From the NCBI GenBank assembly GCA_027923505.1, contig BROI01000021.1, positions 248,001 to 312,000 on the forward strand: a stretch of DNA of 64,000 nt. The letters are read 5' to 3'. Position numbers and translations under genes: made by a program. The notes beneath the pieces are model-generated. The model did not search any database. It was not told where the DNA came from and worked only from the letters and a program-made list of their open reading frames with translations. Origin of the DNA: Mayamaea pseudoterrestris. Lineage: Eukaryota. This document shows positions 2,546 to 55,100 of this stretch, piece after piece (positions within the stretch are counted from its first letter, which is position 1; the number at the start of each line of letters is the position of its first letter).

Positions 2546-2596
2546 ATTGGACATCTGCCCTCCTACATATTCCAGGCAGCTGGTAAGCTTTTAATC

Positions 2597-4372
2597 ATAC
2601 CACTACAATGCCCCGTGCCCTGGCCACCCAACAACCCAATGAGTCAGGCAAAACATGTCCAGAGTGTGCCATTGACATGAGGACGGTCTGACATGGTGCA
2701 AAACGGACTGCCTGGAGGCCTACACTATGGAATGGTCTGCAGGCTGGGGGTGGCCAACACCCCAAATTATGGAATTATACCACTACAATGCCCCGTGCCC
2801 TGGCCACCCAACAACCCAATGAGTCAGGCATAACATGTCCAGGGTGTGCCATTGACATGATGATGGTTGAAAATGGTGCAAAGGGACTTCTGGGAGGCCT
2901 ACACCATGGAATGGTCTGCAGGATGGGTGGCCAACACCCCAAATAATGGAATCACACCACAACAATGCCCCGTGCCCTAGCCACCCAACAACCCAATGAG
3001 TCAGGCAAAACATGTCCAGGGTGTGCCATTGACATGAGGATGGTTTGGAGTGGTGCAAAACAGACTGCCTGGAGGCCTACACCATGGAATGGTCTGCAGA
3101 CTGGGGGTGGCCAACACCCCAAATTATGGAATCATACCACTACAATGCCCCGTGCCCTGGCCCCCCAACAACCCAATGAGTCAGGCAAAACATGTCCAGG
3201 GTGTGCCATTGTCATGAGGATGGTCTGAAATGGTGCAAAACGGACTGCCTGGAGGCCTACCCCATGGAATGGTCTGCAGGATGGGGGTGGCCAACACCCC
3301 TAATTATGGAATCATACCACTACAATGCCCCGTGCCCTGGCCCCCAACAACCCAATGAGTCAGGCAAAACATGTCCAGGGTGTGCCATTGACATGATGAT
3401 GGTTGAAAATGGTGCAAAATGGACTGCCAGGAGGCCTACACCATGGAATGGTCTGCAGGATGGGTGGCCAACACCCCAAATAATGGAATCACACCACAAC
3501 AATGCCCCGTGCCCTAGCCACCCAACAACCCAATGAGTCAGGCAAAACATGTCCAGGGTGTGCCATTGACATGAGGATGGTTTGGAGTGGTGCAAAACAG
3601 ACTGCCTGGAGGCCTACACCATGGAATGGTCTGCAGACTGGGGGTGGCCAACACCCCAAATTATGGAATCATACCACTACAATGCCCCGTGCCCTGGCCA
3701 CCCAACAACCCAATGAGTCAGGCAAAACATGTCCAGGGTGTGCCATTGTCATGAGGATGGTCTGAAATGGTGCAAAACGGACTGCCTGGAGGCCTACCCC
3801 GTGGAATGGTCTGCAGGATGGGGGTGGCCAACACCCCAAATTATGGAATCATACCACTACAATGCCCCGTGCCCTGGCCACCCAACAGCCCAATGAGTCA
3901 GGCAAAACATGTCCAGGGTGTGCCATTGACATGAGGATGGTCTGACATGGTGCACAACGGACTGCCGGGAGGCCTACACCACGGAATGGTCTGCAGACTG
4001 GGGGTGGCCAACACCCCAAATTATGGAATCATACCACTACAATGCCCCGTGCCCTGGCCCCCCAACAACCCAATGAGTCAGGCAAAACATGTCCAGGGTG
4101 TGCCATTGACATGAGGATGGTCTGACATGGTGCAAAACGGACTGCCGGGAGGCCTACACCATGGAATGGTCTGCAGGCTGGGTGTGGCCAACACCCCAAA
4201 TTATGGAATCATACAACTACAATGCCCCATGCCCCGATCACCCAACAACCCAATGAGTCAGGCAAAACATGTCCAGGGTGTGCCATTGACATGAGAATGG
4301 TCTAACATGGTGCAAAACGGACTGCCGGGAGGCCTTCACCACGGAATGGTCTGCAAGATGGGTGTGGCCAAC
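2597..4372. repeat. Satellite family A, 180-bp monomer, ~10 copies
   Basis: Lines 3661, 3841, 4021 and 4201 all begin ttatggaatc atac, giving an exact 180-bp period. The monomer is ...aatgccccgtgccctggccacccaacaacccaatgagtcaggcaaaacatgtccagggtgtgccattgac... Confidence 0.97.
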
Positions 4373-4591
4373 ATAACACCGTTGACGATTTCGCAGTCAA
4401 CGTCTTACCTCCAAAAAGCTCCGATACAGGGTCCTTGGCCACGGTCTGTACAGCTCTTGATGGAGATGGCTCGTCGCATTCTTGTCCTTCACAATCGCAT
4501 ACGATGTATCGCCGCGCCAAAACAATACTGGCTTGAGCAATGGCATCGCATCACAGTACGGCCAGGTACTTTGTCGTCCGCAAGTTCTCCT

Positions 4592-7500
4592 CCAACACCA
4601 CAAGTTGCTTCTTCCCTGTCCCCATGCCTGGCCACCCAAATACCCAATGAGTCCAGGCAAAACATGTAGAGGTATGCCATTGACAGGTATAGTCTCAAAT
4701 GGTGCAAAAAGGACTGCTGAGCTGACACCATAGTGCGGCCTCCACTGTGGGTGGCCAACACCTGAAGTTGCAGATTCTTCCCTGCTCCAACCGCTTCCCT
4801 GCCTGGCCCCCCCAAATCAGGGCGTGGGTTGCCATTTGACAGGTCTGCATAGTCTCAAATGGTGCAAAAGGACCGCCTGGAGAGGCTGACAACATGGAGT
4901 ACGGCCTCCGGGGTATGGCCAACACCACAAGTTGCAGATTCTAATCCAAACGCCCCATGCCCTGGCCACCCAAATACCCAATGAGTCAGGCAAAACATGT
5001 CAGGGATGCCATTGACAGTGCAGAGTCTCAAATGGTGCAAAGGACTGCCTGTAGGCTGACACTATGGGTATGGCCTCCACTGGGGGTATGGCCAACACCG
5101 CAAGTTGCAGATTCTTCCGTGTCAAACACCCCATGCCCAGGCCACCCAAATACCCAATGAGTCAGGCAAAACATGTCCAGGGTATGCAACACCACAAGTT
5201 GCAGATTCTTCCCTGTCCAAGCGCCCCCATGCCCTGGCCACCCAAATACCCAATGAGTCAGGCAAAACATGTCCAGGGTATGCCATTGACAGGTGCATAG
5301 TCTCAGATCTGTAGGGACTGCCTGGAGGCTGACAACATGGGTACAGCCTCCACTGTGGGTATGGCCAACACCACAAGTTGCCCAGATTCATCCCTGTCAA
5401 AAACGCCCCATGCCTATTTTTTAACCCAAGAGTCCAGGCAAAACATGTCCAGGATGCCATTGACAGGTGCAGAGTCTCAAATGGTGCAAAAGGACTGCCT
5501 GGAGGCTGAAAACATGGAATGCGGCCTCCACTGTGGGTGTGGCCAACTTCACCACAAGTTNCAGATTCTTCCATGTCAAGCGCCCCATGCCCTGGCCACC
5601 CAAATACCCAATGAGTCAGGCAAAACATGTCAGGGTATGCCATTGACAGGTGCATAGTCTCAAATGGTGCAAAAGGACTGCCTGGAGGCTGACACCATGT
5701 CGGCCTCCACTGTGGCATAGCCAACACCACAAGTTGCAGATTCTTCTCTGTCAAACGCCCCATGCCCTGGCCACCCAAATACCCAATGAGTCAGGCAAAA
5801 CATGTCCAGGGTATGCCATTGACAGGTGCATAGTCTCAAATGGTGAAAAAAAAGCCTGCCTGGAGGCTGACACCATGGTGACGGCCTCCACTGTGGAGTA
5901 TGGCCAACACCACAAGTTGCAGGTCTTCCTGTCAAGCCTGACCCCATGCCCTGGCCACCCAAATACCCAATGAGTCAGGCAAAAGTATGTCAGGGTATGC
6001 CATTGACAGGTGCATAGTCTCAAATGGTGCAAAAGGACTGCCTGGAGGCTGACAACATGGGTCTGACACTCCACTGTGGAGTGGCCAGCATACAAGTTGC
6101 AGATTCATCTGTCAAGCGCCCTGCCCTGGCCACCCAAATACCCAATGAGTCAATTAAAACATGTAGGTGATGCCATTGACAGGTGCAGAGTCTCAAATGG
6201 TGCAAAAAGGACTGCCTGGAGGCTGACAACATGGGTACCGCCTCCTCTGTGGGTATGGCCAACACCACAAGTTGCAGATTCTTCCCTGTCCGCCCCCATG
6301 CCCTGGCCACCCAAATGCCAATGAGTCCAGGCAAAACATGTAGGGTATGCCATTGACAGGTGCATAGTTTACAAATGGTGCAAAAAGGACTGCCTGGAGG
6401 CTGACACCATGGGTACGGCCTCCACCAATGGAGCGGACCAACACCACAAGTTGCAGATTCATCCCTGTCAAACGCCCCATGCCCTGGCCACCCAAATACC
6501 CAATGAGTCAGGCAAAACATGTCAAGGGTAGGCCATTGACAGGTGCATAGTCTCAAATGGTGCAAAAAGGACTGCCTGGAGGCTGACAACATGGGTACGG
6601 CCTACTGTGGGTATGGCCAGCACCACAAGTTGCAGATTCTTCTGTCCAAACGCCCCATGCCTGGCCACCCAAATACCCAATGAGTCAGGCAAAACATGTA
6701 GGAGTTATGCCATTGACAGGTGCATAGTCTCAGAAATGGTGCAAGGACTGCCTGGAGGCTGACACCATGGATGCGGCCTACTGGGTATGGCCAACACCTG
6801 AAGTTGCAGATTCTTCCCTGTCAAACGCCCCATGCCCTGGCCACCCAAATACCCAATGAGTCAGGCAAAACATGTCAGGGTATGCCATTGACAGGTGCAT
6901 AGTCTCAAATGGTGCAAAAAGGACTGCCTGGAGGCTGACAACATGTCACGGCCTCCACTGTGGGTATGGCCAACACCACAAGTTGCAGATTCATCTGTCA
7001 AATGCCCCTTCTGGCCACCCAAATACCCAATGATTCAGGCAGAACATGTCCAGGGGATGCCTTTGACAGGTGCATAGTCTCAAATGGTGCAAAGGACTGC
7101 CTGGAGGCTGACAACATGGTACGGCCTCCACTGTGGGTATAAAACACCACAAGTTGCAGATTCTTCTGTCAAACGCCCTGCCTGGCCGCCCAAATACCCA
7201 ATGAGTCAGGCAAAACATGTCCAGGGGATGCCATTGACAGGTGCATAGTCTCAAATGGTGCAAAAAGGACTGCCTGGGGCTGACACCATGGAGTACACTC
7301 CACTGTGGGCGTATTACAAGTTGCAGATTCTTCCCTGTCAAACACCCATGCCCTGGCCACCCAAATACCCAATGAGTCAGGCAAAACATGTCCAGGGTAT
7401 GCCATTGACAGGTGCATAGTCTCAAATGGTGCAAGGACTGCCTGGAGGCTGACAACATGGAGTACGGCCTCCACTGTGGGTATGGCCCAGCACCACAAGT

Positions 7501-10130
7501 TGCAGCTTCATCTGTCAAACGCCCCATGCCCTGGCCACCCAAATACCCAATGAGTCAGGCAAAACATGTAGGTGCCATTGACAGGTGCAGAGTCTCAAAT
7601 GGTGCAAGACTGCCTGGAGGCTGACAACATGGGTACACCGCCTCCTCTGTGGGTATAGCCAGCACCACAAGTTGCAGATTCTTCTCTGTCAAACGCCCCA
7701 TGCCCTGGCCACCCAAATACCCAATGAGTCAGGCAAAACATGTCAGGGGATGCCATTGACAGATTGCATAGTCTCAAATGGTGCAAAAAGGACTGCCTGG
7801 AGGCTGACACCATGGAGTACGGCCTCCACTGTGGAATATCCAACACCACAAGTTGCAGATTCTTCTGTCAAGCCCCATGCCTAATCCAAACCAAGAGTCA
7901 GGCAAAACATGTCAAGGGTAGGCCATTGACAGGTGCATAGTCTCAAATGGTGCAAGGACTGCCTGGAGGCTGACAACATGGAGTACGGCCTCCACTGTGG
8001 GTATGGCCAACCCCACAAGTTGCAGATTCTTCTGTCAAACGCCCCATGCCCTGGCCACCCAAAATACCCAATGAGTCAGGCAAAACATGTCCGGGTATGC
8101 CATTGACAGGTGCATAGTCTCAAATGGGACTGCCTGGAGGCTGACACCATGGTACGGCCTCCACTGTGAGTATGGCCAACACCACAAGTTGCAGATTCTT
8201 CCGCCCATGCCCTGGCCACCCAAATACCCAATGAGTCAGGCAAAACATGTCCAGGGTATGCCATTGACAGGTGCATAGTCTCAAATGGTGCAAAGGACTG
8301 CCCAGAGGCTGACAACATGGAGTACGGCCTCCACTGTGGGTATGGCCAACACCACAGGTGCAGATTCATCCCTGTCAAATGCCCCATGCCCTGGCCACCC
8401 AAATACCCAATGAGTCAGGCATAACATGTCCAGGGTATGCCATTGACAGATGCAGAGTCTCAAATGGTGCAAAAAGGACTGCCTGGAGGCTGACAACATG
8501 AATACGGCCTCCACTGTGGGTATGGCCAACACCACAAGTTGCAGATTCTTCTCTGTCAAACGCCCCATGCCCTGGCCACCCAAATACCCAATGAGTCAGG
8601 CAAAACATGTCCAGGGATGCCATTGACAGGTGCATAGTCTCAAATGGTGCAAAAGGACTGCCTGGAGGCTGACAACATGGGTACGGCCTCCACTGTGGGT
8701 ATGGCCAACACCACAAATTGCAGATTCATCCCTGTCAAACGCCCCATGCCCTGGCCACCCAAATACAATGAGTCCAGGCAAAACATGTCCAGGATGCCAT
8801 TGACAGTGCAAGTCTCAATCTGGAAAGGACTGCCTGGTGACAACATGGAGTACGGCCTCCACTGTGGGTATGTCCAACACCACAAGTTGCATATTCTTCC
8901 TGTCAAGCGCCCCATGCCCTGGCCACTTAAATACCAATGAGTCAGGCAAAACATGTCAGGGGATGCCATTGACAGGTGCAGAGTCTCTCAAATGGTGCAA
9001 GGACTGCCCTGGAGGCTGACAACATGGGTGCCGGCCTCCACTGTGGGTATGGCCAACACCACAAGTTGCAGATTCTTCCCTCAAGCGCCCCATGCCCACA
9101 ATCCAAAACCCATGAGTCAGGCAAAACATGTCCAGGGTAAGCCATTGACAGGTGCATAGTCTCAAATGGTGCAAAAGGACTGCCTGGAAGGCTAACACCA
9201 TAGATGCCGGCCTCCACTGTGTGGGTATAGCCAACACCACAGAGAAGTGCAGATTCTTCTGTCAAGCGCCCCATGCCCTGGCCACCCAAATACCCAAGGC
9301 AAAACATGTCCAGGGGATGCCATTGACAGGTGCATAGTCTCAAATAGTTGCAAGGACTGCCTGGAGGCTGACAACATAGATACGGCCTCCCACTGTGGTA
9401 TGGCCAGCACCACAAGTTGCCAGATTCTTCCCTGTCAAACGCCCCATGCCCTGGCCACCCAAATACCCAATGAGTCATACCAAAACATGTCCAGGGTAGG
9501 CCATTGACAGGTGCATAGTCTCAAATGGTGCAAGGACTGCCTGGAGGCTGACAACATGGTACGGCCTCCACTGTGGGTACCATAGCCAACACCACAAGTT
9601 GCAGATTCTTCCCTGTCAAACCCCCATGCCCTGGCCACCCAAATACCCAATGAGTCAGGCAAACATGTCCAGGGTAGGCCATTGACAGGTGCATAGTCTC
9701 AAATGGTGCAAAGGACTGCCTGGAGGCTAACACCATGGGGTACGGCCTCCACTGTGGGTATGGCCAGCACCACAAGTTGCAGATTCTTCCCTGTCAAACG
9801 CCTTATGCCCTGGCCACCCAAATACCCAATGAGTCAGGCAAAACATGTCAGGGTGCCATTGACAGATGCATAGTCTCGAATGGTGCGAAAAGGCCGGCCT
9901 GGAGGCTGACAACATGGGTACGGCCCCCACTGTGGGTATGGCCAACACCACAAGTTGCAGATTCTTCCCTGTCAAACGCCCCATGTCTGGCCACCCAAAT
10001 ACCCAATGAGTCATACCAAGAACATGTCCAGGGTAGGCCATTGACAGGTGCATAGTCTCAAATGGTGCAAAAAGGACTGCCTGGAGGCTGACAACATGGT
10101 TCGGCCTCCACTGTGGTATGGCCAACACTA
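4592..10130. repeat. Satellite family A', ~180-bp monomer related to A, ~31 indel-rich copies
   Basis: Consensus caaatacccaatgagtcaggcaaaacatgtccagggtatgccattgacaggtgcatagtctcaaatggtgcaaaaaggactgcctggaggctgacaacatgg...gttgcagattcttccctgtcaaacgccccatgccctggccacc. The period is 181 bp between 8401 and 8582. Confidence 0.95.
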
Positions 10131-10149
10131 CAGCAAGTCCTGTAGGTGC

Positions 10150-13100
10150 ACCATTTACACCAGAACGGTGCCAAACATCAACGTCATTATTCAGGCTGCG
10201 CTACAAGAGTTGGTGGTGTCTCAGGGATGGCAATGATATTGGTGACAACTTGTCACCATTCTCAACCCGCTGATGCCGTGATATCAAACTGGTGCCCAAA
10301 TTACACCAGAATGGTGCCAACGTCATTATTCAGGTTTACAAAGATGGTAGGGGTTGGCTGGTAGCTCCCAGGGGATGGTGAATGGAGAGAAATTGTCACC
10401 AGTCTTAACCGTGATGCGTGAAAATTCAACGCCCCTACAGCAGGCCATTTATACACCCAAATGACACCAGAATGGTGCCAGCATCTTCAGGTGTAGAAGG
10501 GTGATGGACTTTGGTGACAACTTGTCACAGTCTCAGCTGCAGATGTCGTGACATTCAAATTAACCCACAGTAGGCAGTCGTAAGATCCAAATGACACCCA
10601 GAATGGTGCCAACTCACTTATACAACTTGCGCTACAAGATGGTTGGCTAGTGGGGGACGGAGTTTTGTCTCGGGAAAAGTGGTGAGTAGTTCTCACCAGT
10701 CTCATCCCACAGATGCCGTGACATTCAAACGCCTTTACAGCAGGCCATGTTTAAACCCATATAACACCAGAATGGTGCCAACATCATTGTTCAGGCTGCG
10801 CTACAAGATGGCAGGTCATTAGTGTCTCAGGATGGCAAAGAATTGGTGACAACTTGTCACCAGTCTCAGCTGCAGATGCCGTGATTATTCGAACGCCCCA
10901 CAGCAGGGGCCATGTATACACCCAATGACATGTGTGAATGGTGCCAACATCATCATTCAGGTGCTACAAGAGGGTATGCCTGGCTAGTGTCTCAGGGGAC
11001 GGAAAACGACAATTGTTTACATTGCTCGGCAGATGTGCGGAACAAACGCCCCACAGCAGGTTAACACCAATTGAAAACTGGAATGGTGCATATTATTCAG
11101 GTGCGCCACAAGATGGTATTGCTATGTCTCGTAGGAGCAATGATATTGGTGACAACTTGTCACCAGTCTCAGCTCTGCGGATGCTGTGTCATTCAAACGC
11201 CCCAGCAGGCATAATAACCAAATGACACCAGTTGCCAACATCATTATTCAGGCTGCGCCAAGAGATGGTGTCCGTGTCTCAGGGGACAGCAATGATACGT
11301 GAAACTTGTCACCAGTCTCAGCTTCAGATGTGACATTCAAACAATACAGAGGCATAAGGGAAGACAAATGACACAGAATGGTGCCAAACATCATTATTCA
11401 GGCTGCGCTACAAGCTGGTATGCACAACTCTGTCACCAGCCCCAGCTTGGGCGGATGCCGGGAGATTCAAACGTACAGCAGGCCAAGAATATACCCAAAT
11501 GACACCAAATTGGTGCCAACATCATTATTCAGGCTGCGTACAAGAGGTTGCTGGCTTGTGTCTCAGGGGACAGACGGTATTGGTGACAAATCTGTCACCA
11601 GTCTCAGCCCGCGTGACTCAAATTCAGAGGATGTCGAACAAAAAAGGAGCCAAACATTATTTAGGTGCGTAAAGAGTGGAGTCGTCTCAGGGGACAGATA
11701 GAGGTGAAAGTCACATTCAGATGCGTGAATTCAAACCACAGAGGCATATACCCAAATGATACCAGAATGGTGCCAACATCATTATTCAGGCTGCGCTACA
11801 AGATGGAATGCCTGGCTAGTGTCTCTTCAGGGGACGGATGATTTTGGTGACAACTTGTCACCAGTCTCAGCCAGCAGATGCTGTGACATTCAAACGCCCC
11901 TACAGCAGGCCACAATATACACCCAAATGACACCACAGAATGGTGCCAAATATCATTATTCAGGCTGCGCCACAAGCTGGTCTGCCTGGCTAGTGTCTCA
12001 GGGGACAGCAATGATATTGGTGACAACTTGTCACCAGTCTCGCCGGATGCCGTGACATTCAAATCGCCCCTACAGCAGGCCACAGTGAATATACCCAAAA
12101 GACACCAGAAGGTGCCAACATCATAATTAGTGCGCAACAAGATGGTATGCCTGGCTAGTGTCTCAGGGGACGGAAGATATTGGTGACAACTTGTCACCAG
12201 TCTCAGCCACAGATGCCGGGACATTCAAATGCCTACAGAGGCTGGGGATACACCCCAAAGGACACCAGAATGGTGCCAACATCATTATTCAGGCTGCGAG
12301 CTGGGATGTGTCTCAGGTGACGGGAATGATATTGGTGACAGCTTGTCACCAGTCTCAGCCTGCAGATGCCTGTGACATTCAAACGCCCCTACAGCAGGCC
12401 AGATAACCCAAATGACACCAGAATGGTGCCAACACATTATTCAGGCTGCACTACAAGATGGTATGCCTGGCTAGTGTCTCAGGGGACGGCAATGATATTG
12501 GTGACAACTTGTCACCAGTCTCAAGCTGCAGATGCTGTGACATTCAAACGCCCCTACAGCAGGCCATGTATACCCAAATGACACCAGAATGGTGCCAACA
12601 TCATTATTCAGGCTGCACTACAAGATGGTATGCCTGGCTAGTGTCTCAGGGGACAGCAATGATATTGGTGACAACTTGTCACCAGTCTCAGCCTGCAGAT
12701 GCCGTGACATTCAAACCCCCCTACAGCAAGCCATGTACACCAAATGACACCAGAATGGTGCCAACATCAATATTCATGCTGCGCAACAAGATAGTATGCC
12801 TGGCTAGTGTCTCAGGGGACGACAATGATATTGGTGACAACTTGTCACCAGTCTCAGCCTCGCAGATGCCGTGCATTCAAAGCCCTAACACCTGCTTCTG
12901 ACACCGATTTCGGTGCCAACTCCTCATTCAAAAGCTCCGCTACGGTATCCTTGGCTAGTGTCTTCAGTGGAGAGACGGCCGCGAATAGTCTTGGTCGCCA
13001 CACACGAAACGACTTGTCACCCGTCTCAACCTGCAGTCTATGCCGTGAGCTTCCAAAACGCCTCTACAGCAGACCATGGATATACACCCAAATGACACCA

Positions 13101-16100
13101 GAATGGTGCCAACATCATATTCAGACTATCGCTCACAAGATGGTATGCCACTGGCTAGTGTCTCAGGGGACAGCAATGATATGGTGACAACTTGTCACAG
13201 TCTCAGCCCGCAGATGCCGTGACATTCAAACACCCCTACAGCAGGCCATGTATCCCAATTGACACCAGAAGGTGCTAACATCTATTATTCAGGCTGCGCT
13301 ACAAGATGGCATATGCCTGGCAGTGTCTCAGGGGCACGGCAATGATATTGGTGACAACTTGTCACCAGTCTCAGCCTGCAGATGCCGTGACATTCAAACG
13401 CCCTACAGCAGGCCTGTAGTACTCCCAAATGACACCAGAATGGTGCCAACATCATTAATCAGGCGGCGCTACAATATAGTATGCCTGCCTAGTGTCTCAG
13501 TGGACGGCAATGATATTGTGAACAACTTGTCACCAGTCTCAGCCAGCAGATGCCATGACATTCAAACGCCCCTACAGCAGGCCATGTATACACCCAATTG
13601 ACACCAGAATGGTGCCAACATCAATTATTCCAGGCTACGCTACAAGATGGCATGCCTGGCTAGTGTCTCAGGGGACGGCAATGATTTTGGTGACAACTTG
13701 TCACCAGTCTCAGCCTGCAGATGCCGTGACATTCAAACGTCCCTACAGCAGGCCATATACTCCCAAATGACACCCAGAATGGTCCAATATCTTTGTTCAG
13801 GCTGCGCTACAAGATGGTATGCCTGGCAAGATGATCTCAGGGGACGGCAATGATATTGATGACAACTTGTCACCAGTTTCAGCCGTAGATCTGTGACATT
13901 CAAACACCCCTACAGCAGGCCAGTGACTATAACCCAAATGATCCACCAGAATGGTTGCCAACATCATTATTCAGGCTGCGCCACAAGATGTTATGCCTGG
14001 CTAGTGTCTCAGGGGACGGCAATGATAATGGTGACAACTTGTCACCAGTCTCAGCCTGCAGATGTCGTGACATTCAAACGCCCTACAGCAGGCCATGTAT
14101 TACACCCAAATGACACAGAATGGTGCCAACATCATCATTCAGGCTGCGCTACAAGATGGTATGCCTGGCTAGTGTCTCAGGGGACCAATGAATTGGTGAC
14201 AACTTGTCACCAGTCTCAGCCTGCAAGATGCCGTGACATTCAAACGCCCCATCAGCAGGCCATGTATACACCCAAATGACACCAGAATGGTGCTAACATC
14301 ATTATTCAGGCGCGCTACAAGATGGTTTGCCACTGGCTAGTGTCTACCAGGGGACGGCAATGATATTGGTGACAACTTGTCACCAGTCTCAGCCTGCAGA
14401 TGCCGTGACATTCAAACGCCCCTACAGCAGGCCATGTATACACCCAAATGACACCAGAATGGTGCCAACATCATTATTCAGGCTGCGCTACAAGATGGTA
14501 TGCCTGGCTAGTGTCTCAGGGGACAGCAATGATATTGGTGACAACTTGTCACCAGTCTCAGCCTGCAGATGCCGTGACATTCAAACGCCCCATCAGCAGG
14601 CCATGTATACACCCAAATGACACCAGAATGGTGCCAACATCATTATTCAGGCTGCGCTACAAGATGGTATGCCTGGCTAGTGTCTCAGGGGACGGCAATG
14701 ATATTGGTGACAACTTGTCACCAGTCTCAGCCTGCAGATGCCGTGACATTCAAACGCCCCTACAGCAGGCCATGCATACACCAAAAGACACCAGAATGGT
14801 GCCAACATCATTATTCAGGCTGCGCTACAAGATGGTATGCCTGGCTAGTGTCTCAGGGGACGGCAATGATATTGGTGACAACTTGTCACCAGTCTCAGCC
14901 TGCAGATGCCGTGACATTCAAACGCCCCTACAGCAGGCCATGTATACACCCAAATGACACCAGAATGGTGCCAACATCATTATTCAGGCTGCGCTACAAG
15001 ATGGTATGCCTGGCTAGTGTCTCAGGGGACGGCAATGATATTGGTGACAACTTGTCACCAGTCTCAGCCTGCAGATGCCGTGACATTCAAACGCCCCTAC
15101 AGCAGGCCATGTATACACCCAACTGACACCAGAATGGTGCCAACATCATTATTCAGGCTGCGCTACAAGATGGTATGCCTGGCTAGTGTCTTCCAGCAAT
15201 GATATTGGTGACAACTTGTCACCAGTCTCAGCCTGCAGATGCCGTGACATTCAAACGCCCCTACAGCAGGCCATGAATACACCCAAATGACACCAGAATG
15301 GTGCCAACATCATTATTCAGGCTGCGCTACAAGATGGTATTCCTGGCTAGTGTCTCAGGGGACGGCAATCATATTGGTGACAACTTGTCACCAGTTTCAG
15401 CCTGCAGATGCCGTGACATTCAAACAACCCACAGCAGGCCATGTATACACCCAAATGACACCAGAATGGTGCCAACATCATTTATCAGGCTGCGCTACAA
15501 GATGGTATGCCTGGCTAGTGTCTCAGGGGACGGCAATGATATTGGTGACAACTTGTCACCAGTCTCAGCCTGCAGATGCCGTGACATTCAAACGCCCCTA
15601 CAGCAGGCCATGTATACACCCAAATGACACCAGAATGGTGCCAACATCATCATTCAGGCTGCGCTACAAGATGGTATGCCTGGCTAGTGTCTCAGGGGAC
15701 GGCAATGATATTGGTGACAACTTGTCACCAGTCTCAGCCTGCAGATGCCGTGACATTCAAACGCCCCTACAGCAGGCCATGTATACACCCAAATGACACC
15801 AGAATGGTGCCAACATCATTATTCAGGCTGCGCCACAAGATGGTATGCCTGGCTAGTGTCTCAGGGGACGGCAATGATATTGGTGACAACTTGTCACCAG
15901 TCTCAGCCTGCAGATGCCGTGACATTCAAACGCCCCTACAGCAGGCCATGTATACACCCAAATGACACCAGAATGGTGCCAACATCATTATTCAGGCTGC
16001 GCTACAAGATGGTATGCCTGGCTAGTGTCTCAGGGGACGGCAATGATATTGGTGACAACTTGTCACCAGTCTCAGCCTGCAGATGCCGTGACATTCAATA

Positions 16101-19100
16101 AACACCTACAGCAGGCCATGTATACAACCAAATGATACCAGAATGGTGCCAACATCATTATTCAGGCTGCGCTACAAGATGGTATGCCTGGCTAGTGTCT
16201 CAGGGGACGGCAATGATATTGGTGACAACTTGTCACCAGTCTCAGCCTGCAGATGCCGTGACATTCAAACGCCCCTACAGCAGGCCATGTATACACCCAA
16301 ATGACACCAGAATGGTGCCAACATCATTATTCAGGCTGCGCTACAAGATGGTATGCCTGGCTAGTGTCTCAGGGGACGGCAATGATATTGGTGACAACTT
16401 GTCACCAGTCTCAGCCTGCAGATGCCGTGACATTCAAACGCCCCTACAGCAGGCCATGTATACACCCAAATGACACCAGAATGGTGCCAACATCATTATT
16501 CAGGCTGCGCTACAAGATGGTATGCCTGGCTAGTGTCTCAGGGGACGGCAATGATATTGGTGACAACTTGTCACCAGTCTCAGCCTGCAGATGCCGTGAC
16601 ATTCAAACGCCCTTCAGCAGGCCATGTATACACCCAAATGACACCAGAATGGTGCCAACATCATTATTCAGGCTGCGCTACAAGATGGTATGCCTGGCTA
16701 GTGTCTCAGGGGACGGCAATGATATTGGTGACAACTTGTCACCAGTCTCAGCCCGCAGATGCCGTGACATTCAAACGCCCCTACAGCAGGCCATGTATAC
16801 ACCCAAATGACACCAGAATGGTGCCAACATCATCATTCAGGCTGCGCTACAAGATGGTATGCCTGGCTAGTGTCTCAGGGGACGGCAATGATATTGGTGA
16901 CAACTTGTCACCAGTCTCAGCCTGCAGATGCCGTGACATTCAAACGCCCCTACAGCAGGCCATGTATACACCCAAATGACACCAGAATGGTGCCAACATC
17001 ATTATTCAGGCTGCGCTACAAGATGGTATGCCTGGCTAGTGTCTCAGGGGACGGCAATGATATTGGTGACAACTTGTCACCAGTCTCAGCCTGCAGATGC
17101 CGTGACATTCAAACACCCCTACAGCAGGCCATGTATACACCCAAATGACACCAGAATGGTGCCAACATCATTATTCAGGCTGCGCTACAAGATGGTATGC
17201 CTGGCTAGTGTCTCAGGGGATGGCAATGATATTGGTGACAACTTGTCACCAGTCTCAGCCTGCAGATGCCGTGACATTCAAACGCCCCTACAGCAGGCCA
17301 TGTATACACCCAAATGACACCAGAATGGTGCCAACATCATTATTCAGGCTGCGCTACAAGATGGTATGCCTGGCTAGTGTCTCAGGGGACGGCAATGATA
17401 TTGGTGACAACTTGTCACCAGTCTCAGCCCGCAGATGCCGTGACATTCAAACGCCCCTACAGCAGGCCATGTATACACCCAAATGACACCAGAATGGTGC
17501 CAACATCATTATTCAGGCTGCGCTACAAGATGGTATGCCTGGCTAGTGTCTCAGGGGATGGCAATGATATTGGTGACAACTTGTCACCAGTCTCAGCCTG
17601 CAGATGCCGTGACATTCAAACGCCCCTACAGCAGGCCATGTATACACCCAAATGACACCAGAATGGTGCCAACATCATTATTCAGGCTGCGCTACAAGAT
17701 GGTATGCCTGGCTAGTGTCTCAGGGGACGGCAATGATATTGGTGACAACTTGTCACCAGTCTCAGCCCGCAGATGCTGTGACATTCAAACGCCCCTACAG
17801 CAGGCCATGTAGACGCCCAAAAGACACCAGAATGGTGCCAACATCATTATTCAGGCTGCGCTACAAGATGGTATGCCTGGCTAGTGTCTCAGGGGACGGC
17901 AATGATATTGGTGACAACTTGTCACCAGTCTCAGCCTGCAGATGCCGTGACATTCAAACGCCCCTACAGCAGGCCATGTATACACCCAAATGACACCAGA
18001 ATGGTGCCAACATCATTATTCAGGCTGCGCTACAAGATGGTATGCCTGGCTAGTGTCTCAGGGGACGGCAATGATATTGGTGACAACTTGTCACCAGTCT
18101 CAGCCTGCAGATGCCGTGACATTCAAACGCCCCTACAGCAGGCCATGTATACACCCAAATGACACCAGAATGGTGCCAACATCATTATTCAGGCTGCGCT
18201 ACAAGATGGTATGCCTGGCTAGTGTCTCAGGGGACGGCAATGATATTGGTGACAACTTGTCACCAGTCTCAGCCTGCAGATGCCGTGACATTCAAACACC
18301 CCTACAGCAGGCCACGTATACGCCCAAATAACACCAGAATGGTGCCAACATCATTATTCAGGCTGCGCTACAAGATGGATTGCCTGGCTAGTGTCTCAGG
18401 GGACGGCAATGATATTGGTGACAACTTGTCACCAGTCTCAGCCTGCAGATGCCATGACATTCAAACGCCCTACAGCAGGCCATGTATACACCCAAATGAC
18501 ACCAGAATGGTGCCAACATCATTATTCAGGCTGCGCTACAAGATGGTATGCCTGGCTAGTGTCTCAGGGGACGGCAATGATATTGGTGACAACTTGTCAC
18601 CAGTCTCAGCCTGCAGATGCCGTGACATTCAAACGCCCCTACAGCAGGCCATGTATACACCCAAATGACACCAGAATGGTGCCAACATCATTATTCAGGC
18701 TGCGCTACAAGATGGTATGCCTGGCTAGTGTCTCAGGGGACGGCAATGATATTGGTGACAACTTGTCACCAGTCTCAGCCTGCAGATGCCGTGACATTCA
18801 AACGCCCCTACAGCAGGCCATGTATACACCCAAATGACACCAGAATGTTGCCAACATCATTATTCAGGCTGCGCTACAAGATGGTATGCCTGGCTAGTGT
18901 CTCAGGGGACGGCAATGATATTGGTGACAACTTGTCACCAGTCTCTTCAGGCTGCAGATGCCGTGACATTCAAACGCCCCTACAGCAGGCCATGTATACA
19001 CCCAAATGACACCAGAATGGTGCCAACATCATCATTCAGGCTGCGCTACAAGATGGTATGCCTGGCTAGTGTCTCAGGGGACGGCAATGATATTGGTGAC

Positions 19101-21553
19101 AACTTGTCACCAGTCTCAGCCTGCAGATGCCGTGACATTCAAACGCCCCTACAGCAGGCCATGTATACACCCAAATGACACCAGAATGGTGCCAACATCA
19201 TCATTCAGGCTGCGCTACAAGATGGTATGCCTGGCTAGTGTCTCAGGGGATGGCAATGATATTGGTGACAACTTGTCACCAGTCTCAGCCCGCAGATGCC
19301 GTGACATTCAAACGCCCCTACAGCAGGCCATGTATACACCCAAATGACACCAGAATGGTGCCAACATCATTATTCAGGCTGCGCTACAAGATGGTATGCC
19401 TGGCTAGTGTCTCAGGGGACGGCAATGATATTGGTGACAACTTGTCACCAGTCTCAGCCTGCAGATGCCCTGGCATTCAAAACGCACCTCCAGCAGGCCA
19501 TGTATATACCCAAATGACACCAGAATGGTGCTAACATCATTATTCAGGCTGCGCTACAAGATGGTATGCCTGGCTAGTGTCTCAGGGGACGGCAATGATA
19601 TTGGTGACAACTTGTCACCAGTCTCAGCCTGCAGATGCCGTGACATTCAAACGCCCCTACAGCAGGCCATGTATACACCCAAATGACACCAGAATGGTGC
19701 CAACATCATTATTCAGGCTGCGCTACAAGATGGTATGCCTGGCTAGTGTCTCAGGGGACGGCAATGATATTGGTGACAACTTGTCACCAGTCTCAGCCCG
19801 CGGATGCCGTGACATTCAAACGCCCCTACAGCAGGCCATGTATACACCCAAATGACACCAGAATGGTGCCAACATCATCATTCAGGCTGCGCTACAAGAT
19901 GGTATGCCTGGCTAGTGTCTCAGGGGACGGCAATGATATTGGTGACAACTTGTCACCAGTCTCAGCCTGCGGATGCCGTGACATTCAAACGCCCCTACAG
20001 CAGGCTATGTATACACCCAAATGACACCAGAATGGTGCCAACATCATCATTCAGGCTGCGCTACAAGATGGTATGCCTGGCTAGTGTCTCAGGGGACGGC
20101 AATGATATTGGTGACAACTTGTCACCAGTCTCAGCCAGCAGATGCCGTGACATTCAAACGCCCCTACAGCAGGCCACATATACACCCAAATGACACCAGA
20201 ATGGTGCCAACATCATTATTCAGGCTGCGCTACAAGATGGTATGCCTGGCTAGTGTCTCAGGGGACGGCAATGATATTGGTGACAACTTGTCACCAGTCT
20301 CAGCCTGCAGATGCCGTGACATTCAAACGCCCCTACAGCAGGCCATGTATACACCCAAATGACACCAGAATGGTGCCAACATCATATTTCAGGCTGAGCA
20401 ACAAGATGGTATGCCTGGCTAGTGTCTCAGGGGACGGCAATGATATTGGTGACAACTTGTCACCAGTCTCAGCAGACCCCCGCAGTGCCAACTCGCGGCC
20501 CCCTCGTGACATTCAAACGCCCCTACAGCAGGCCATGAATATACCCAAAAGACACCAGAATGGTGCCAACATCATCATTCAGGCTGCGCTACAAGATGGT
20601 ATGCCTGGCTAGTGTCTCAGGGGACGGCAATGATATTGGTGACAACTTGTCACCAGTCTCAGCCTGCAGATGCCGTGACATTCAAACGCCCCTACAGCAG
20701 GCTATGTATATACCCAAATGACACCAGATTGGTGCCAACGTCATCATTCAGGCTGTGCTACAAGGGGGTATGCCTGGCTAGTGTCTCAGGGGACGGCAAT
20801 GATATTGGTGACAACTTGTCACCAGTCTCAGCCCGCGGATGCCGTGACATTCAAACGCCCCTAGAGCAGGCCATGAATATACCCAAATGACACCAGAATG
20901 GTGCCAACATCATCATTCAGGCTGCGCTACAAGATGGTATGCCTGGCTAGTGTCTCAGGGGACGGCAATGAATTTGGTGACAACTTGTCACCAGTCTCAA
21001 CCTGCAGATGCCGTGACATTCAAACGCCCCTACAGCAGGCTATGTATACACCCAATTGACACCAGAATGGTGCCAACATCATTATTCAGGCTGTGCTACA
21101 AGGGGGTATGCCTGGCTAGTGTCTCAGGGGACAGCAATGATATTGGTGACAACTTGTCACCAGTCTCAGCCCGCAGATGCCATGACATTCAAACGCCCCT
21201 ACAGCAGGCCATGAATATACCCAAAAGACACCAGAATGGTGCCAACATCATCATTCAGGCTGTACTACAAGTGGGTATGCCTGGCTAGTGTCTCAGGAGA
21301 CGGCAATGATATTGGTGACAACTTGTCACCAGTTTTAGCCTACGGATGCTGTGACATTCAAACGCCCCTAGAGCAGGCCATGAATTTACCCAAATGACAC
21401 CAGAATGGTGCCAACATCATCATTCAGGCTGCGCTACAAGATGGTATGCCTGGCTAGTGTCTCAGGGGACGGTAATGATATTGGTGACAACTTGTCACCA
21501 GTCTCAGCCTGCAGATGCCGTGACATTCAAATGCCCCTTCAGCAGGCCATGTA
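10150..21553. repeat. Satellite family B, 169-bp monomer, ~67 copies, with a near-identical core at ~14350-20460
   Basis: Monomer aaatgacaccagaatggtgccaacatcattattcaggctgcgctacaagatggtatgcctggctagtgtctcaggggacggcaatgatattggtgacaacttgtcaccagtctcagcctgcagatgccgtgacattcaaacgcccctacagcaggccatgtatacaccc (169 nt by count). ORF-track starts recur every 169 bp (16132, 16301, 16470). Confidence 0.98.
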
Positions 21554-21810
21554 GGTCAAGAGTGATTTGGCCAGTTTTAAATTGTTCTTCCCAAACGCCT
21601 TCACTTGTTCTGCTATCAGCTCATTATACCGTTCAATTTCACAGTCTAGTATGCTCAAAGCGCCACTGTTATAGTGACTACGAGTAGTAGGTGCATGCTT
21701 CACTTGCGATGTCGAGGCCCTAGAACCTCTTACAGCAAGCTGTGTTCTCGAATCAGCTATTGCTGGCCGGGACACAATATCTTCAGCCTCTGTATTGTCA
21801 TCAGTAGACT

Positions 21811-22310
21811 GCAATGTGATTGGTGACAACTTGTCACCAGTCTCAGCCAGCAGATGCCGTAATGTTCAAATGCCCATACCTAGAGCCATGTAATATGCCC
21901 AAATCAAGCCAGAATGGTGCTAACATCCTTTCAGGTGCGCTACAAGTAAATTTGACTGGCTGGTCCCTCAGTTGTCTGCAATGTGAATGGTGAGAAGTTC
22001 TCACCAGTCTCAGCCAGCAGTTGCCTTGACATTCAAATGCCCGTACATCAAGTCATGCATACTCTCAAAATGCACAAGACTTAGGTCAACATCATTATTC
22101 AGGCTGTGCTATAAGTTGGTATGCCTGACCGGTGTCACAGTAGCTGCAATGTGACTGTTCTCACCAGTCTCAGCTGTTGGCAGCCTTGGCATTCACTGCC
22201 ATCAGCATGCATAATTAGAGCCATATATATAAATGCCCAGTTCACATAAGAATGATGCCAAACCCATTTTAAAGCATGCTTTACAAGATTTAATGCCTGG
22301 CTACCGGTAG
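21811..22310. repeat. Three increasingly degenerate satellite B monomers (right-flank relic)
   Basis: gcaatgtga...tcaccagtctcagc recurs at 21811, 21978 and 22146 (period 167-168 bp), followed by diverged agaatggtgc/caggctg/atgcctgg motifs. Confidence 0.9.
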
Positions 22311-22544
22311 TCCTTATTGTTTCGTTCACGTGGTACGTCGAACTTGTACTTGTATATGGCGTCCGTACGAGTAGTGTATAGACATCAATGATGGTGTGAC
22401 GCACTTTTGGTCGCGCGTCCGTTTCCACTTCTTGTCTGTTTTCACGTCCTGCACGGACGGTATACACGCGATCATCAATCTCTGCTTCGACTGATTCATA
22501 CAATAACATCATTGCATACATATTTTACCAAGCTTTTGAAAGAA

Positions 22545-23167
22545 ATGTCCATATCATGCAGAGTTGGCGTTCGTTTACGATCGGCCATGTCAGGATGCCG
22601 ATGCTTCCGGGCGCAACAACGATGCTTCTCAGAGTGGGGTCAGCGAGGGTATGATATTACCAGCGACTTGTTGTCGTTTGGTGATCGACCCAAAACTGTT
22701 CTGCAGGTGCGTACATGCGTAGACCTATATTGTTGACAACAACGGGTGAAGCTTATACAGACACACATTCGACTGTCTATCGACAGGCCTATGCTCCAAC
22801 AGGATTCGATGTTTTAAACTTGGTCAAAAGAGTTGACCCAAACGAACAAGCCGAGTCTGGGACACTTCACATGCATGGCAGCATCATTGCGTTTCCGTTT
22901 GGCAGCTTTCTTTGGAACATTACTGGGCCAAAAGACGTGACACTCGAATCGTTGGCGCCCATAATGTTGCACCGACCCAAGATAGAATATCTTTTCATCG
23001 GATGTAACGAATCTATAGACCGAAAAGAGATTGATCGGATACAGGCTGCCATGCCTGGACTTGTGGTGGAAAAAATGATGATATCGAACGCCATGGGCAC
23101 GTTTAATATTTTGAATGCCGAAGATCGGCAGGTATGTGCAGCATTAGTTCTGGATCCTAACGACTAG
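22545..23167 (+). CDS. NDUFAF3: NDUFAF3/Mth938-like (DUF498) mitochondrial complex I assembly factor
   Basis: Exon 1 (22545..22706) carries an Arg-rich presequence. Intron 22707..22786 (GTGCGT...ACAG). Exon 2 has GSIIAFP..FLW, IEYLFIGC and EKMMISNAMGTFNILNAEDRQVCAAL. Confidence 0.85.
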
Positions 23168-23282
23168 TCAATTATAAATGTACAAGTTGATGAAAGTGCT
23201 CATAGAGTACTTGATATAGATTCAAAACAGATCGTTCCTATGATGCGCGGTACGTATTCATTTGTAGTAGCATCCCATAGCT

Positions 23283-24131
23283 CTACGGATCAATAGAGTC
23301 AACCTTAACGAGACAAAAGAGTCCGTCCCCTTGCTGCCGAATGATTAGAAACTTGTCGTCCAAAAATGTGACATCAAAGTAACCTGGTCCATTCTCACTT
23401 TGCGACACTCCAGGAATTCTGGGCAAGTCCACTCCCAAGGGCGGAAGAAGACTCGTGACATTCATACCCAGAGCCTGCACTGGCTGCAGCTGCACCGAAC
23501 AAAACTCCAATCCGACGCGATTGGGTTGATTGATGCGTTCGTATGCTCGCGTTTCAACATTGGCTCGAAGCAATGAACTTGGCACAAGACTTGGAGGTAA
23601 GAGAGACTGAATCCGCGGTGCAAAGTCAATGACGTTTGTCACGATTGGCGGTGTAAACACTTGATAAATGGCGCCAGTCGTAGCAAATGGATTCGCTTCC
23701 AACGATAACACATCTAGAGCCGTCGTCCAAACCATGCGCCAGGCTCCAGTCAAGGGAGAAGTTGTAGAAGCAGTGTCGTACGTCGCTGCGCCTGTTATTC
23801 CGCGAGCAGCAAAGGTTTCCTGATTTCTAGCCTCGATTTGCTTGATGAGTTCATCGACTCGCTTTCTAGCTCCTGAGGATGCTCCGAAACCACGATTGTA
23901 AGAAGCACCATATGATATAAGTTTAGTTTGAAGATCTTCAGTTGCAGCAGTCGTCGCAGGCCGATCGTCTACGGCATTGACAGAGGTCGCAGCGTCAAAC
24001 AAGGCGCCTGACGAGTCTGAGCGAACTGAGGCACCGAACAAACGTCGAATGCGGTTGGCTTTGTATTGTGAAAAGCTATCCGCTGGCCAAATCAGACTCA
24101 GCAGCACAAGGACGGAAGATACAGACCTCAT
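23283..24131 (-). CDS. Plastid lipid-associated protein / fibrillin (PAP_fibrillin)
   Basis: Signal peptide ending ADS-F. Motifs NRGFGAS...VDELIKQIE, LTGAWRMVWTTA and GYFDVTFLDDKFLIIRQ are typical of fibrillins. Confidence 0.85.
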   Translation of the reverse strand: MRSVSSVLVLLSLIWPADSFSQYKANRIRRLFGASVRSDSSGALFDAATSVNAVDDRPATTAATEDLQTKLISYGASYNRGFGASSGARKRVDELIKQIEARNQETFAARGITGAATYDTASTTSPLTGAWRMVWTTALDVLSLEANPFATTGAIYQVFTPPIVTNVIDFAPRIQSLLPPSLVPSSLLRANVETRAYERINQPNRVGLEFCSVQLQPVQALGMNVTSLLPPLGVDLPRIPGVSQSENGPGYFDVTFLDDKFLIIRQQGDGLFCLVKVDSIDP

Positions 24132-28037: not shown

Positions 28038-28287
28038 GGTGAAAGTTGGAGGTTGTTCGGTGCAGTATCGCGAGAAACATGATCGAGTCGTTGGGCTCGC
28101 GCCGATCTTTACTTGAGGATCGGGTTTTCCTGCAGCGCGGCGGCGCGCGCGCCGTTTCTTTCGTCGCTTCGTCTCGACCTTCATTATTGCCGACCTTTCC
28201 AAACACCTTTCTGTCAGATAAGTCGACGAACAAGCTATAAAGAGGGAAGGCAAGGAGTAAACTGCGTCACTGGTAACTTCCGACAGC

Positions 28288-54882: not shown

Positions 54883-55100
54883 GGGCTTGTTGGTTACATT
54901 TTCAGCTGATTCACTCGCGTACTACATATTGCAACTTTTCAGCTGGCGCTTGTGGATATGTGGCCGCCGAAGCTCCTTCGCCTGAAGCGTCTCGCCGCAG
55001 CCTTGTTCATGCTCCATCGATGTGTGGGCTTGTTGGTTACATTTTCAGCTGATTTACTCGCGTACTGCATATTGCAACTTTCCAGCTGGCGCGTGTGGAT
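54815..55100. repeat. 143-bp tandem duplication (2 copies) covering the stop codon and 3' UTR of the START-like gene
   Basis: atgtggccgccgaagctccttcgcctgaagcg... begins at 54815 and again at 54958, with only a few substitutions. Confidence 0.95.

What the first reader, a model, noticed from the sequence alone, without database searches (positions are those of the whole stretch)
16050..16068. Perfect 19-bp dyad TGGTGACAA-C-TTGTCACCA in nearly every satellite B monomer
Seen: 9-bp perfect inverted arms around one base, repeated every 169 bp (example coordinates given). It is essentially invariant in the core and is among the best-kept elements of the noisy edge copies. Smaller dyads (CACCA-gaa-TGGTG; CAGGCTG...CAGCCTG) also occur. 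Known: dyad symmetries and non-B DNA are enriched in many centromeric satellites, and palindromes are typical homodimer binding sites. Inference: a once-per-nucleosome protein-binding box (CENP-B-box analogue) or cruciform.
Basis: partly seen in the sequence, partly recalled or inferred. Interest (0 to 1): 0.75.

Follow-up and report, generated by a model that had tools for sequence, protein, structure and literature searches.

The report
Conserved palindromic box in diatom satellite
Each 169-base unit of a very abundant diatom satellite repeat carries a perfect 19-base palindrome that changes less than the rest of the unit, so it is probably a protein docking site, but nothing yet shows what binds it or that it marks a centromere.

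Summary
TGGTGACAACTTGTCACCA occurs 57 times in the window, with 0 expected by chance. It is perfect in 57 of the 72 satellite B monomers that cover it and unchanged in all 36 core copies.

The dyad changes less than the rest of the monomer. It has 1.00 parsimony changes per site, against 2.43 at the other non-CpG sites (p 0.0008). It is the 19-mer most often intact in the 15 oldest copies (4 of 15).

The constrained unit is an asymmetric 25-bp box, not the dyad alone. This box is the dyad plus GTCTCA. The left arm changed 12 times and the right arm 3 times.

The 9-bp half-site word recurs as a second, everted pair half a monomer away. One compensated double change keeps the palindrome in the outermost copies.

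The predicted DNA hairpin is weak (-7 kcal/mol). There is no match to the CENP-B box, no Rfam hit, and no array break inside the dyad.

Centromere location, protein binding and non-B structure could not be tested. A genome-wide count could not be obtained.

My best reading is a sequence-specific protein-binding box. This is a new member of a known kind.

The parts
10124..22303 (+). Satellite B array: about 72 monomers of 169 bp. The core (14289-20371) is homogeneous and both edges are decayed.
   Evidence: TRF gives period 169 and 54.6 copies. blastn gives 74 hits. nhmmer gives 73 hits. The alignment is shown.
16050..16068 (.). Example copy of the perfect 9+1+9 dyad TGGTGACAA-C-TTGTCACCA (model positions 76-94).
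   Evidence: It is perfect in 57 of 72 monomers.
16050..16074 (+). The 25-bp least-variable box (model 76-100): the dyad plus the right flank GTCTCA.
   Evidence: Parsimony changes are 1.00 per site, against 2.50 at 121 other non-CpG, non-boundary sites (Mann-Whitney p 0.00015). The edges are sharp: sites 71-75 have 2, 3, 4, 5 and 6 changes, sites 76-77 have 0 and 0, site 100 has 1 and site 101 has 5.
16044..16074 (.). Imperfect 31-bp extension of the dyad, with 13 of 15 arm pairs matching.
   Evidence: Local alignment of the monomer with its reverse complement scores 37; shuffles give 18.7 +/- 4.3, with a maximum of 32. The whole monomer is not palindromic.
16298..16322 (+). Second well-kept block, CAAATGACACCAGAATGGTGCCAAC. 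It holds the small dyad CACCA-GAA-TGGTG (16305-16317) and two degenerate copies of the 9-bp half-site word in everted order (ATGACACCA and TGGTGCCAA).
   Evidence: By cell counts it is the second valley of variation. By parsimony it is only mildly low, at 1.81 changes per site. A second inverted pair of this kind arose in 23 of 20000 shuffles.
21988..22006 (.). Variant perfect dyad TGGTGAGAA-G-TTCTCACCA in an outermost copy. Arm position 7 is changed on both arms in a complementary way.
   Evidence: The same pair of changes is seen in the left-edge copy beginning at 10605. The right-arm change alone is seen in copy 22085, and the left-arm change alone in copy 10313.

Best explanation
The dyad is the main part of a constrained 25-bp box, TGGTGACAACTTGTCACCAGTCTCA, that occurs once in each 169-bp monomer of a very abundant diatom satellite. 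I think it most likely works as a docking site for a sequence-specific DNA-binding protein that reads the 9-bp word TGGTG(A/C)CAA. That word is present as a head-to-head pair in the box and as a weaker, everted pair half a monomer away. Monomers that keep the box would be the ones kept or re-amplified during array turnover, so the box stays intact while the rest of the monomer drifts.

Shown: the dyad exists, its period, its lower substitution rate, the sharp edges of the kept block, the recurrence of the word, and one compensated double change.

Inferred: that a protein binds, what that protein does (heterochromatin packaging, centromere function, or promotion of recombination and amplification), and any relation to nucleosome spacing.
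For: The dyad has 19 parsimony changes over 19 sites. The other 127 non-CpG, non-boundary sites average 2.43 changes per site. The tree was built without the dyad columns, which works against the dyad (Mann-Whitney one-sided p 0.0008). Only 2 of 169 19-bp windows have fewer changes, and both overlap the dyad.

In the 15 most diverged copies the dyad is intact in 4. That is the maximum for any window; only 5 of 169 windows reach it, all overlapping the dyad, and 86 of 169 have none intact.

In the edge copies the rate of substitutions plus gaps is 0.085, against 0.152 elsewhere.

The kept block has sharp edges, as expected of a site and not of a smooth gradient.

There are four copies of the 9-bp word per monomer; the second inverted pair arose in 23 of 20000 shuffles.

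The palindrome survived a double transversion at mirror positions in the outermost copies on both edges.
Against: No binding data exist. All counts come from one array of 72 related copies in one window, and a genome-wide per-position count could not be obtained because the variant table is cut.

By number of distinct variant types the dyad is only moderately low: 37 against a mean of 47, with 11 of 169 windows lower.

The arms are unequally kept (12 changes against 3), which a strictly symmetric dimer site does not predict.

The second word pair has the opposite orientation and a different spacing, so one dimer geometry cannot fit both.

The second block is not clearly low by parsimony (1.81 per site).

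The word-recurrence statistic is post hoc.

The neighbouring satellite A has no comparable dyad, so such a box is not a general requirement of satellites in this genome.
Confidence: 0.4

Rival explanations
1. There is no sequence-specific function. The palindrome was a chance feature of the founder monomer. Its low variation reflects uneven mutation and uneven homogenisation along the monomer, for example gene-conversion tracts that start near the palindrome, plus occasional copying of one arm from the other.
For: Conserved and variable segments are usual in satellite monomers (abstract of PMC3694981; passages of PMC5139131). The core copies are nearly identical everywhere, so most of the dyad's 'invariance' is array homogenisation. 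By distinct variant types the dyad is only about 20% below the mean. A 9-bp dyad arises in 0.6% of shuffled monomers, which is not negligible across many satellite families and windows.
Against: Arm-to-arm copying keeps symmetry but does not lower divergence from the consensus, and most of the changes seen are one-sided. The edges of the kept block are sharp and the left edge coincides with the start of the dyad. The dyad is the 19-mer most often intact in the oldest copies. Array breaks avoid the dyad and do not cluster in it.
Confidence: 0.3
2. The dyad works through DNA structure. Under negative supercoiling or during replication it extrudes as a small cruciform or hairpin (non-B DNA) that helps to deposit centromeric or heterochromatic chromatin, as proposed for dyad-rich centromeric satellites.
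For: The single-strand DNA hairpin is -7.0 kcal/mol, against -2.5 +/- 1.5 in shuffles (z -3.1; 0 of 200 shuffles fold as well). Dyad density by the Kasinathan and Henikoff definition is 0.274 in the B core, against 0.204 +/- 0.011 in shuffles and 0.157 in genic DNA (definition from passages of PMC5889037). One compensated double change keeps the pairing. The centre base is the most variable dyad position, with 4 changes, as expected of a loop.
Against: The stem is only 8 bp with a 3-nt loop. By my own knowledge, not tested here, arms this short extrude poorly. The left arm changes four times as often as the right. The right flank GTCTCA, which lies outside the stem, is kept as well as the stem. 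The mirror extension on the left is variable. The whole monomer folds no better than shuffles (z 0.27). Satellite A next door has no dyad enrichment (0.220 against 0.216).
Confidence: 0.15
3. The dyad is a relic of origin. It would be the abutted terminal inverted repeats of a small mobile element that was amplified in tandem, or a palindromic breakpoint at which arrays recombine and spread.
For: If the monomer is read from TTGTCACCA to TGGTGACAA, it has 9-bp terminal inverted repeats joined by one base. In one mollusc satellite, 13 of 16 junctions map to a 12-bp palindrome (passages of PMC5139131). Conserved motifs sit at monomer junctions in Meloidogyne satellites (abstract of PMC3694981).
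Against: No array break or end in this window lies inside the dyad. Exits are at model positions 169, 160, 116, 134 and 147; re-entries are at 71, 13, 12, 1 and 17; the array ends lie near 133 and at 50. No solo copies lie outside the array in the window. There is no target-site-duplication-like junction.
Confidence: 0.05

Closest known systems
CENP-B box of primate alpha satellite and mouse minor satellite, and the 'CENP-B box-like' motifs reported in other satellites (for example Meloidogyne; PMC3694981, abstract read)
   Same: It is a short motif occurring once per nucleosome-sized satellite monomer, and it is better kept than the rest of the monomer. A role in protein binding and/or array rearrangement has been proposed for such motifs.
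   Different: There is no sequence match at the dyad to the CENP-B core, a motif I recalled rather than took from a call. The only match is 7 of 9 specified positions in the second block, which is chance level. The CENP-B box is not a palindrome. No CENP-B-like protein could be looked for, because no genome is held. Centromeric location is unknown.
[quoted passage not shown]
   Same: It is a dyad with arms under 10 bp and a short spacer in a tandem satellite, with dyad density above shuffled and genic background.
   Different: Here it is one long, exact and position-fixed dyad per monomer that is itself conserved, not a statistical excess of many short ones. Conservation is asymmetric and extends outside the dyad. 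CENP-A occupancy and non-B formation are untested.
Palindromic boxes in another satellite block of the same genome
   Same: By that note it is in the same genome, has a spacing of about 170 bp, belongs to a high-copy satellite, and shows few matched arm changes.
   Different: A sequence look-up with the B monomer found no look-alike window, so it is probably another family. I could not see that sequence, and its claims were not tested here.
Known diatom centromeres (Phaeodactylum tricornutum, Fistulifera solaris): short low-GC regions (passages of 10.1101/2021.11.10.468027; listing and abstract start of 10.1101/096016)
   Same: Both are in diatom nuclear genomes.
   Different: Those centromeres are 1-2 kb, 36-42% GC in F. 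solaris, and are said not to contain highly repeated elements. This array is 12 kb of about 50% GC satellite.

Membership tests
CENP-B box | Match to the essential core nTTCGnnnnAnnCGGGn (motif recalled, not from a call) | tested here: not met
   One search found no match at the dyad with up to 2 mismatches. One 7-of-9 match per monomer lies on the minus strand in the second block. By my own arithmetic, a match of that quality is expected by chance in about 45% of 169-bp monomers. Across the window there were 174 matches, against 130 expected from shuffles.
CENP-B box | Bound by CENP-B, a pogo-transposase-derived protein | not testable with these tools
   No whole genome is held for this window, and there are no binding data.
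CENP-B box | Regular spacing, one per monomer or per alternate monomer of a centromeric satellite | tested here: inconclusive
   One per monomer is met (57 of 72). Centromeric location is unknown.
Centromeric dyad symmetry / non-B DNA (Kasinathan and Henikoff) | Dyads with palindrome length over 4 and spacer under 20, enriched over composition-matched background | tested here: met
   One search gives 0.274 for the B core, against 0.204 +/- 0.011 for shuffles and 0.157-0.158 for genic DNA. The enrichment effectively rests on one monomer sequence. Satellite A is not enriched.
Centromeric dyad symmetry / non-B DNA (Kasinathan and Henikoff) | Located where CENP-A is deposited | not testable with these tools
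   No ChIP data exist, and no RNA or chromatin run was listed.
Centromeric dyad symmetry / non-B DNA (Kasinathan and Henikoff) | Forms non-B DNA (permanganate or S1 signal, or predicted cruciform extrusion) | tested here: inconclusive
   Only a single-strand fold could be computed: -7 kcal/mol, z -3.1. No supercoil-dependent extrusion model or experiment was available.
Satellite DNA with conserved box and variable domains | A tandem head-to-tail array of nucleosome-sized monomers in high copy number | tested here: met
   In one search, 42767 contigs of run X1 were laid, and the summed word depth was 1.1e6-1.0e7 on satellite bins against 111 on the unique flank. The tool warns that this is not a copy number.
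Satellite DNA with conserved box and variable domains | A segment with significantly lower variability than the rest of the monomer | tested here: met
   all within this one array.
Phaeodactylum-type diatom centromere | A short, non-repetitive, low-GC region | tested here: not met
   The array has GC 0.48-0.51 in 2-kb windows and is repetitive. The feature definition is taken from passages.
Structured RNA or ribozyme satellite (for example hammerhead satellites) | Match to an Rfam covariance model | tested here: not met
   One search found 0 matches at E up to 1 on 15800-16700, both strands.

The most novel reading that the evidence does not exclude
A lineage of diatoms has satellite-based chromatin domains, possibly centromeres, unlike the short low-GC centromeres of the model diatoms. 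Their 169-bp unit would be defined by a 25-bp palindromic box with four copies of a 9-bp word, read by a dedicated DNA-binding protein. That would be an independently evolved counterpart of the CENP-B box system in a stramenopile.
Probability: 0.1. Interest if true: 0.7.

Novelty: new member of a known kind. Interest (0 to 1): 0.4.

Why it matters
Satellite DNA of diatoms is almost undescribed. Two searches returned no listed paper on diatom satellites: 'diatom / satellite DNA / centromere' (26 papers hold all terms, 15 listed) and 'diatom / satellite repeat / tandem repeats / heterochromatin' (1,100 papers hold at least 3 of the 4 terms, 12 listed). The diatom centromeres in print are short low-GC regions.

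A very abundant, nucleosome-sized satellite with a sharply bounded conserved box gives a concrete 25-mer to use as bait for the protein that organises this chromatin. It also gives a probe for asking whether some diatoms have repeat-based centromeres. If the box proves to be neutral, it is one more example of uneven variability along a satellite monomer.

Tried and rejected
1. Whole-monomer palindrome (inverted-dimer origin). Ungapped symmetry and gapped arm-against-arm alignment are at shuffle level. Rejected.

2. Ancient direct dimer of units of about 84 bp. The best half-against-half score is 15, against 14.5 +/- 2.0 in shuffles. Rejected.

3. First conservation profile. Its minimum sat at the profile ends, and three rotations showed that this was an alignment-boundary artefact. 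It was replaced by a boundary-corrected table.

4. Metagenome scan for the 19-mer. None shares more than about 34 aligned bases (79% identity, E 0.34) with the monomer, and none has a 169-bp array. These are unrelated palindromes and say nothing about relatives of the satellite.

5. Sequencing runs. No RNA holder was listed.

6. Laying contigs of four runs on 21238-24000. This showed the satellite to be very abundant in X1 and X2. The 'other letters' table is cut (132 rows not shown) and mostly lists places where the edge copy differs from the majority, so the genome-wide per-position test could not be made.

7. Runs X7 and X8 (other organism labels, same study as X1). They hold satellite contigs (544 and 436 laid) but not the unique flank. 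A shared satellite and carry-over between libraries cannot be told apart.

8. Relation of satellites A and B. Local alignments of natural copies are not significant (18 against 16.5 +/- 2.2, and 14.5 against 10.5 +/- 1.9 with a maximum of 18.5), although 23 shared 8-mers exceed the 5.4 expected. This is left open. The comparison was made on natural copies, not on consensus sequences.

9. Rfam scan: nothing.

10. CENP-B core pattern: chance-level matches only.

11. No whole genome is held, so searches for dispersed copies and for candidate binding proteins were impossible.

Full report
**What is there**

The window is nuclear DNA of a diatom. An asparaginyl/aspartyl-tRNA-synthetase-like ORF at 40673-42508 has its best named hits in Seminavis (73%) and Phaeodactylum (74%). 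Earlier notes of this scan on the same genome also call it a diatom.

Dense ORFs fill 22-64 kb. Upstream lie two tandem arrays:
- Satellite A: 2593-10132, period 180/359.
- Satellite B: about 10124-22303, period 169.

The 19-mer TGGTGACAACTTGTCACCA sits at 16050-16068. It occurs 57 times, all inside B; none is expected by chance. Of the 56 spacings between hits, 33 are exactly 169 bp. A profile built from 40 core copies finds 73 monomers. 72 of them cover the dyad and 57 carry it perfectly. A perfect dyad with arms of 9 bp or more and a spacer of 12 or less appears in 29 of 5000 shuffled monomers.

**Anatomy**

- The dyad extends imperfectly to 31 bp, TGATATTGGTGACAACTTGTCACCAGTCTCA, with 13 of 15 arm pairs matching. 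The alignment score is 37, against 18.7 +/- 4.3 in shuffles.
- The monomer as a whole is not palindromic.
- It is not a detectable dimer of two units of about 84 bp.
- The 9-bp half-site word TGGTGACAA occurs four times per monomer. Two copies form the dyad.
- A second pair of that quality arose in 23 of 20000 shuffles of the non-dyad part. This statistic is post hoc.

**Is the dyad better kept than the rest?**

My first profile was misleading. The lowest variation fell at the ends of the profile, and re-running with three rotations showed this to be a boundary artefact of local alignment.

I then took each position from the rotation in which it lies farthest from the boundary. The results are:
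- In the 36 core copies the dyad has 0 changes in 684 cells, against 76 in 5402 elsewhere.
- In the edge copies, substitutions plus gaps are 0.085 in the dyad against 0.152 elsewhere.
- The dyad has the lowest substitution rate of all 169 19-bp windows. 17 windows are lower when gaps count.
- By distinct variant types it scores 37 against a mean of 47, with 11 windows lower.

Copies share ancestry, so I also counted Fitch changes on a FastTree tree of 68 monomers. The tree was built without the dyad columns, which biases against the dyad.
- The dyad has 19 changes over 19 sites, against 2.43 per site at 127 other non-CpG, non-boundary sites (Mann-Whitney one-sided p 0.0008).
- Only two windows have fewer changes, and both overlap the dyad.
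- In the 15 most diverged copies (about 20-25% from the core) the dyad is intact in 4. That is the maximum for any 19-bp window; 5 of 169 windows reach it, all overlapping the dyad, and 86 have none intact.

**What exactly is constrained**

- The low-variation block runs from model 76 to 100, which is the dyad plus GTCTCA (1.00 against 2.50 changes per site, p 0.00015).
- Its edges are sharp. Sites 71-75 have 2, 3, 4, 5 and 6 changes, sites 76-77 have none, site 100 has 1 and site 101 has 5.
- The left arm took 12 changes and the right arm 3.
- The centre base is the most variable dyad position, with 4 changes.
- Of the 15 imperfect dyads, most carry one-sided changes.
- One change is compensated: C>G at arm position 7 together with the mirrored G>C. 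This gives the perfect variant TGGTGAGAA-G-TTCTCACCA at 21988-22006, and the same pair is seen in the left-edge copy at 10605. Half-changed forms occur in copies 10313 and 22085.
- The variant lies at both outer edges, so it is probably the older form, and the palindrome survived the switch. This is one event, so its weight is limited.

**Structure**

- As single-stranded DNA the dyad folds into an 8-bp stem with a 3-nt loop at -7.0 kcal/mol. Shuffles give -2.5 +/- 1.5, and 0 of 200 fold as well.
- The whole monomer folds no better than shuffles (z 0.27).
- Dyad density by the Kasinathan and Henikoff definition (passages of PMC5889037) is 0.274 in the B core, against 0.204 +/- 0.011 in shuffles and 0.157 in genic DNA. 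Satellite A is not enriched (0.220 against 0.216).

**Context**

- The array is about 50% GC.
- The diatom centromeres in print are short low-GC regions without highly repeated elements (passages of 10.1101/2021.11.10.468027). Nothing here places B at a centromere.
- B is very abundant. 42767 contigs of run X1 and 8916 of run X2 were laid on 21238-24000. Summed word depth is 10^6-10^7 on satellite bins, against 111 (X1) and 29 (X2) on the unique flank. The tool warns that this is not a copy number.
- Runs X7 and X8, which carry other organism labels but belong to the same study as X1, hold satellite contigs and not the flank. Sharing and carry-over cannot be separated.
- No Rfam family matches.
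- The CENP-B core, a motif I recalled, has no match at the dyad and only a chance-level 7-of-9 match in the second block.
- Breaks in the array do not fall in the dyad. Exits are at model 169, 160, 116, 134 and 147; re-entries are at 71, 13, 12, 1 and 17; the array ends lie near 133 (an A|B junction at an ACAG microhomology) and at 50. This contrasts with a mollusc satellite in which 13 of 16 junctions lie in a palindrome (passages of PMC5139131).

**Reading**

- Best explanation (0.4): the box is a docking site for a sequence-specific protein that reads the 9-bp word, and box-bearing monomers are preferentially retained or re-amplified. The evidence is the sharp, position-specific deficit of changes, its survival in the oldest copies and the recurrence of the word. 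Binding itself is inferred.
- Rival 1 (0.3): uneven mutation or homogenisation without function.
- Rival 2 (0.15): a small cruciform or hairpin. The compensated change and the variable centre favour it. The unequal arms, the conserved flank outside the stem and the short stem count against it.
- Rival 3 (0.05): a relic of mobile-element ends or a recombination breakpoint.

**Comparison and novelty**

The feature works like the conserved boxes of other satellites. These include the CENP-B box, the CENP-B-like and other conserved motifs of Meloidogyne satellites (abstract of PMC3694981), and the dyad-rich satellites of Kasinathan and Henikoff. It is not a member of the CENP-B box family by sequence.

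A sequence look-up with the B monomer found no look-alike window, so that block is probably another family. If so, position-fixed palindromes may recur in this genome's satellites, although satellite A lacks one.

I rate this a new member of a known kind, of moderate interest. What lifts it is that diatom satellites and any repeat-based diatom centromere are essentially undescribed: the listings of the searches showed no paper on diatom satellites.

**Limits**

- All conservation statistics come from one 12-kb array.
No genome is held and the variant table is cut.

Noticed in passing
window 2593-10132: Satellite A is a 180-bp repeat with a 359-bp two-unit higher-order period, directly abutting satellite B. 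Its best dyads (5-7 bp arms, 12-nt spacer) are at chance level. A and B share 23 8-mers against 5.4 expected (for example TCAAACGCCCC and CACCCAAAT), but their alignments are not significant. They may be very distant relatives.
   Followed up: partly
window 10120-10140: The junction between satellites A and B lies at a short ACAG microhomology, in the variable half of the B monomer (about model 133) and not in the dyad.
   Followed up: partly
window 21554-21760: A 207-bp non-satellite insert interrupts the B array between model positions 147 and 17. Its summed contig depth in run X1 is only about 2-4 times that of the single-copy flank.
   Followed up: no
window 20372-20561: One B monomer is 190 bp long, which is 21 bp more than usual. 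TRF reports a local period of 190.
   Followed up: no
window 21238-22167 (runs X7, X8): Runs labelled as other organisms, from the same study as the best holder, contain near-identical satellite B contigs (544 and 436 laid) but none of the unique flank. This is either a satellite shared among relatives or carry-over between libraries.
   Followed up: partly
window 25729-28331, minus strand: Two adjacent ORFs carry a PTEN C2 domain (25729-27003) and a dual-specificity phosphatase motif (27111-28331). This is probably one PTEN-like gene split by an intron.
   Followed up: no
window 40673-42508, plus strand: A class II Asp/Asn-type tRNA synthetase with an N-terminal WHEP-TRS domain. The same architecture is seen in most of the listed hits, and those that carry names are largely diatoms.
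   Followed up: no
window 54815-55100: A 143-bp tandem duplication (2 copies, 95% alike) at the end of, or just after, the 751-aa ORF at 52627-54882.
   Followed up: no
loci L001-L121: The same 19-base palindrome occurs singly in at least 121 unrelated metagenome contigs (the scan stopped at its limit), and one contig (L034) has two copies 42 bp apart. None is related to the satellite.
   Followed up: partly
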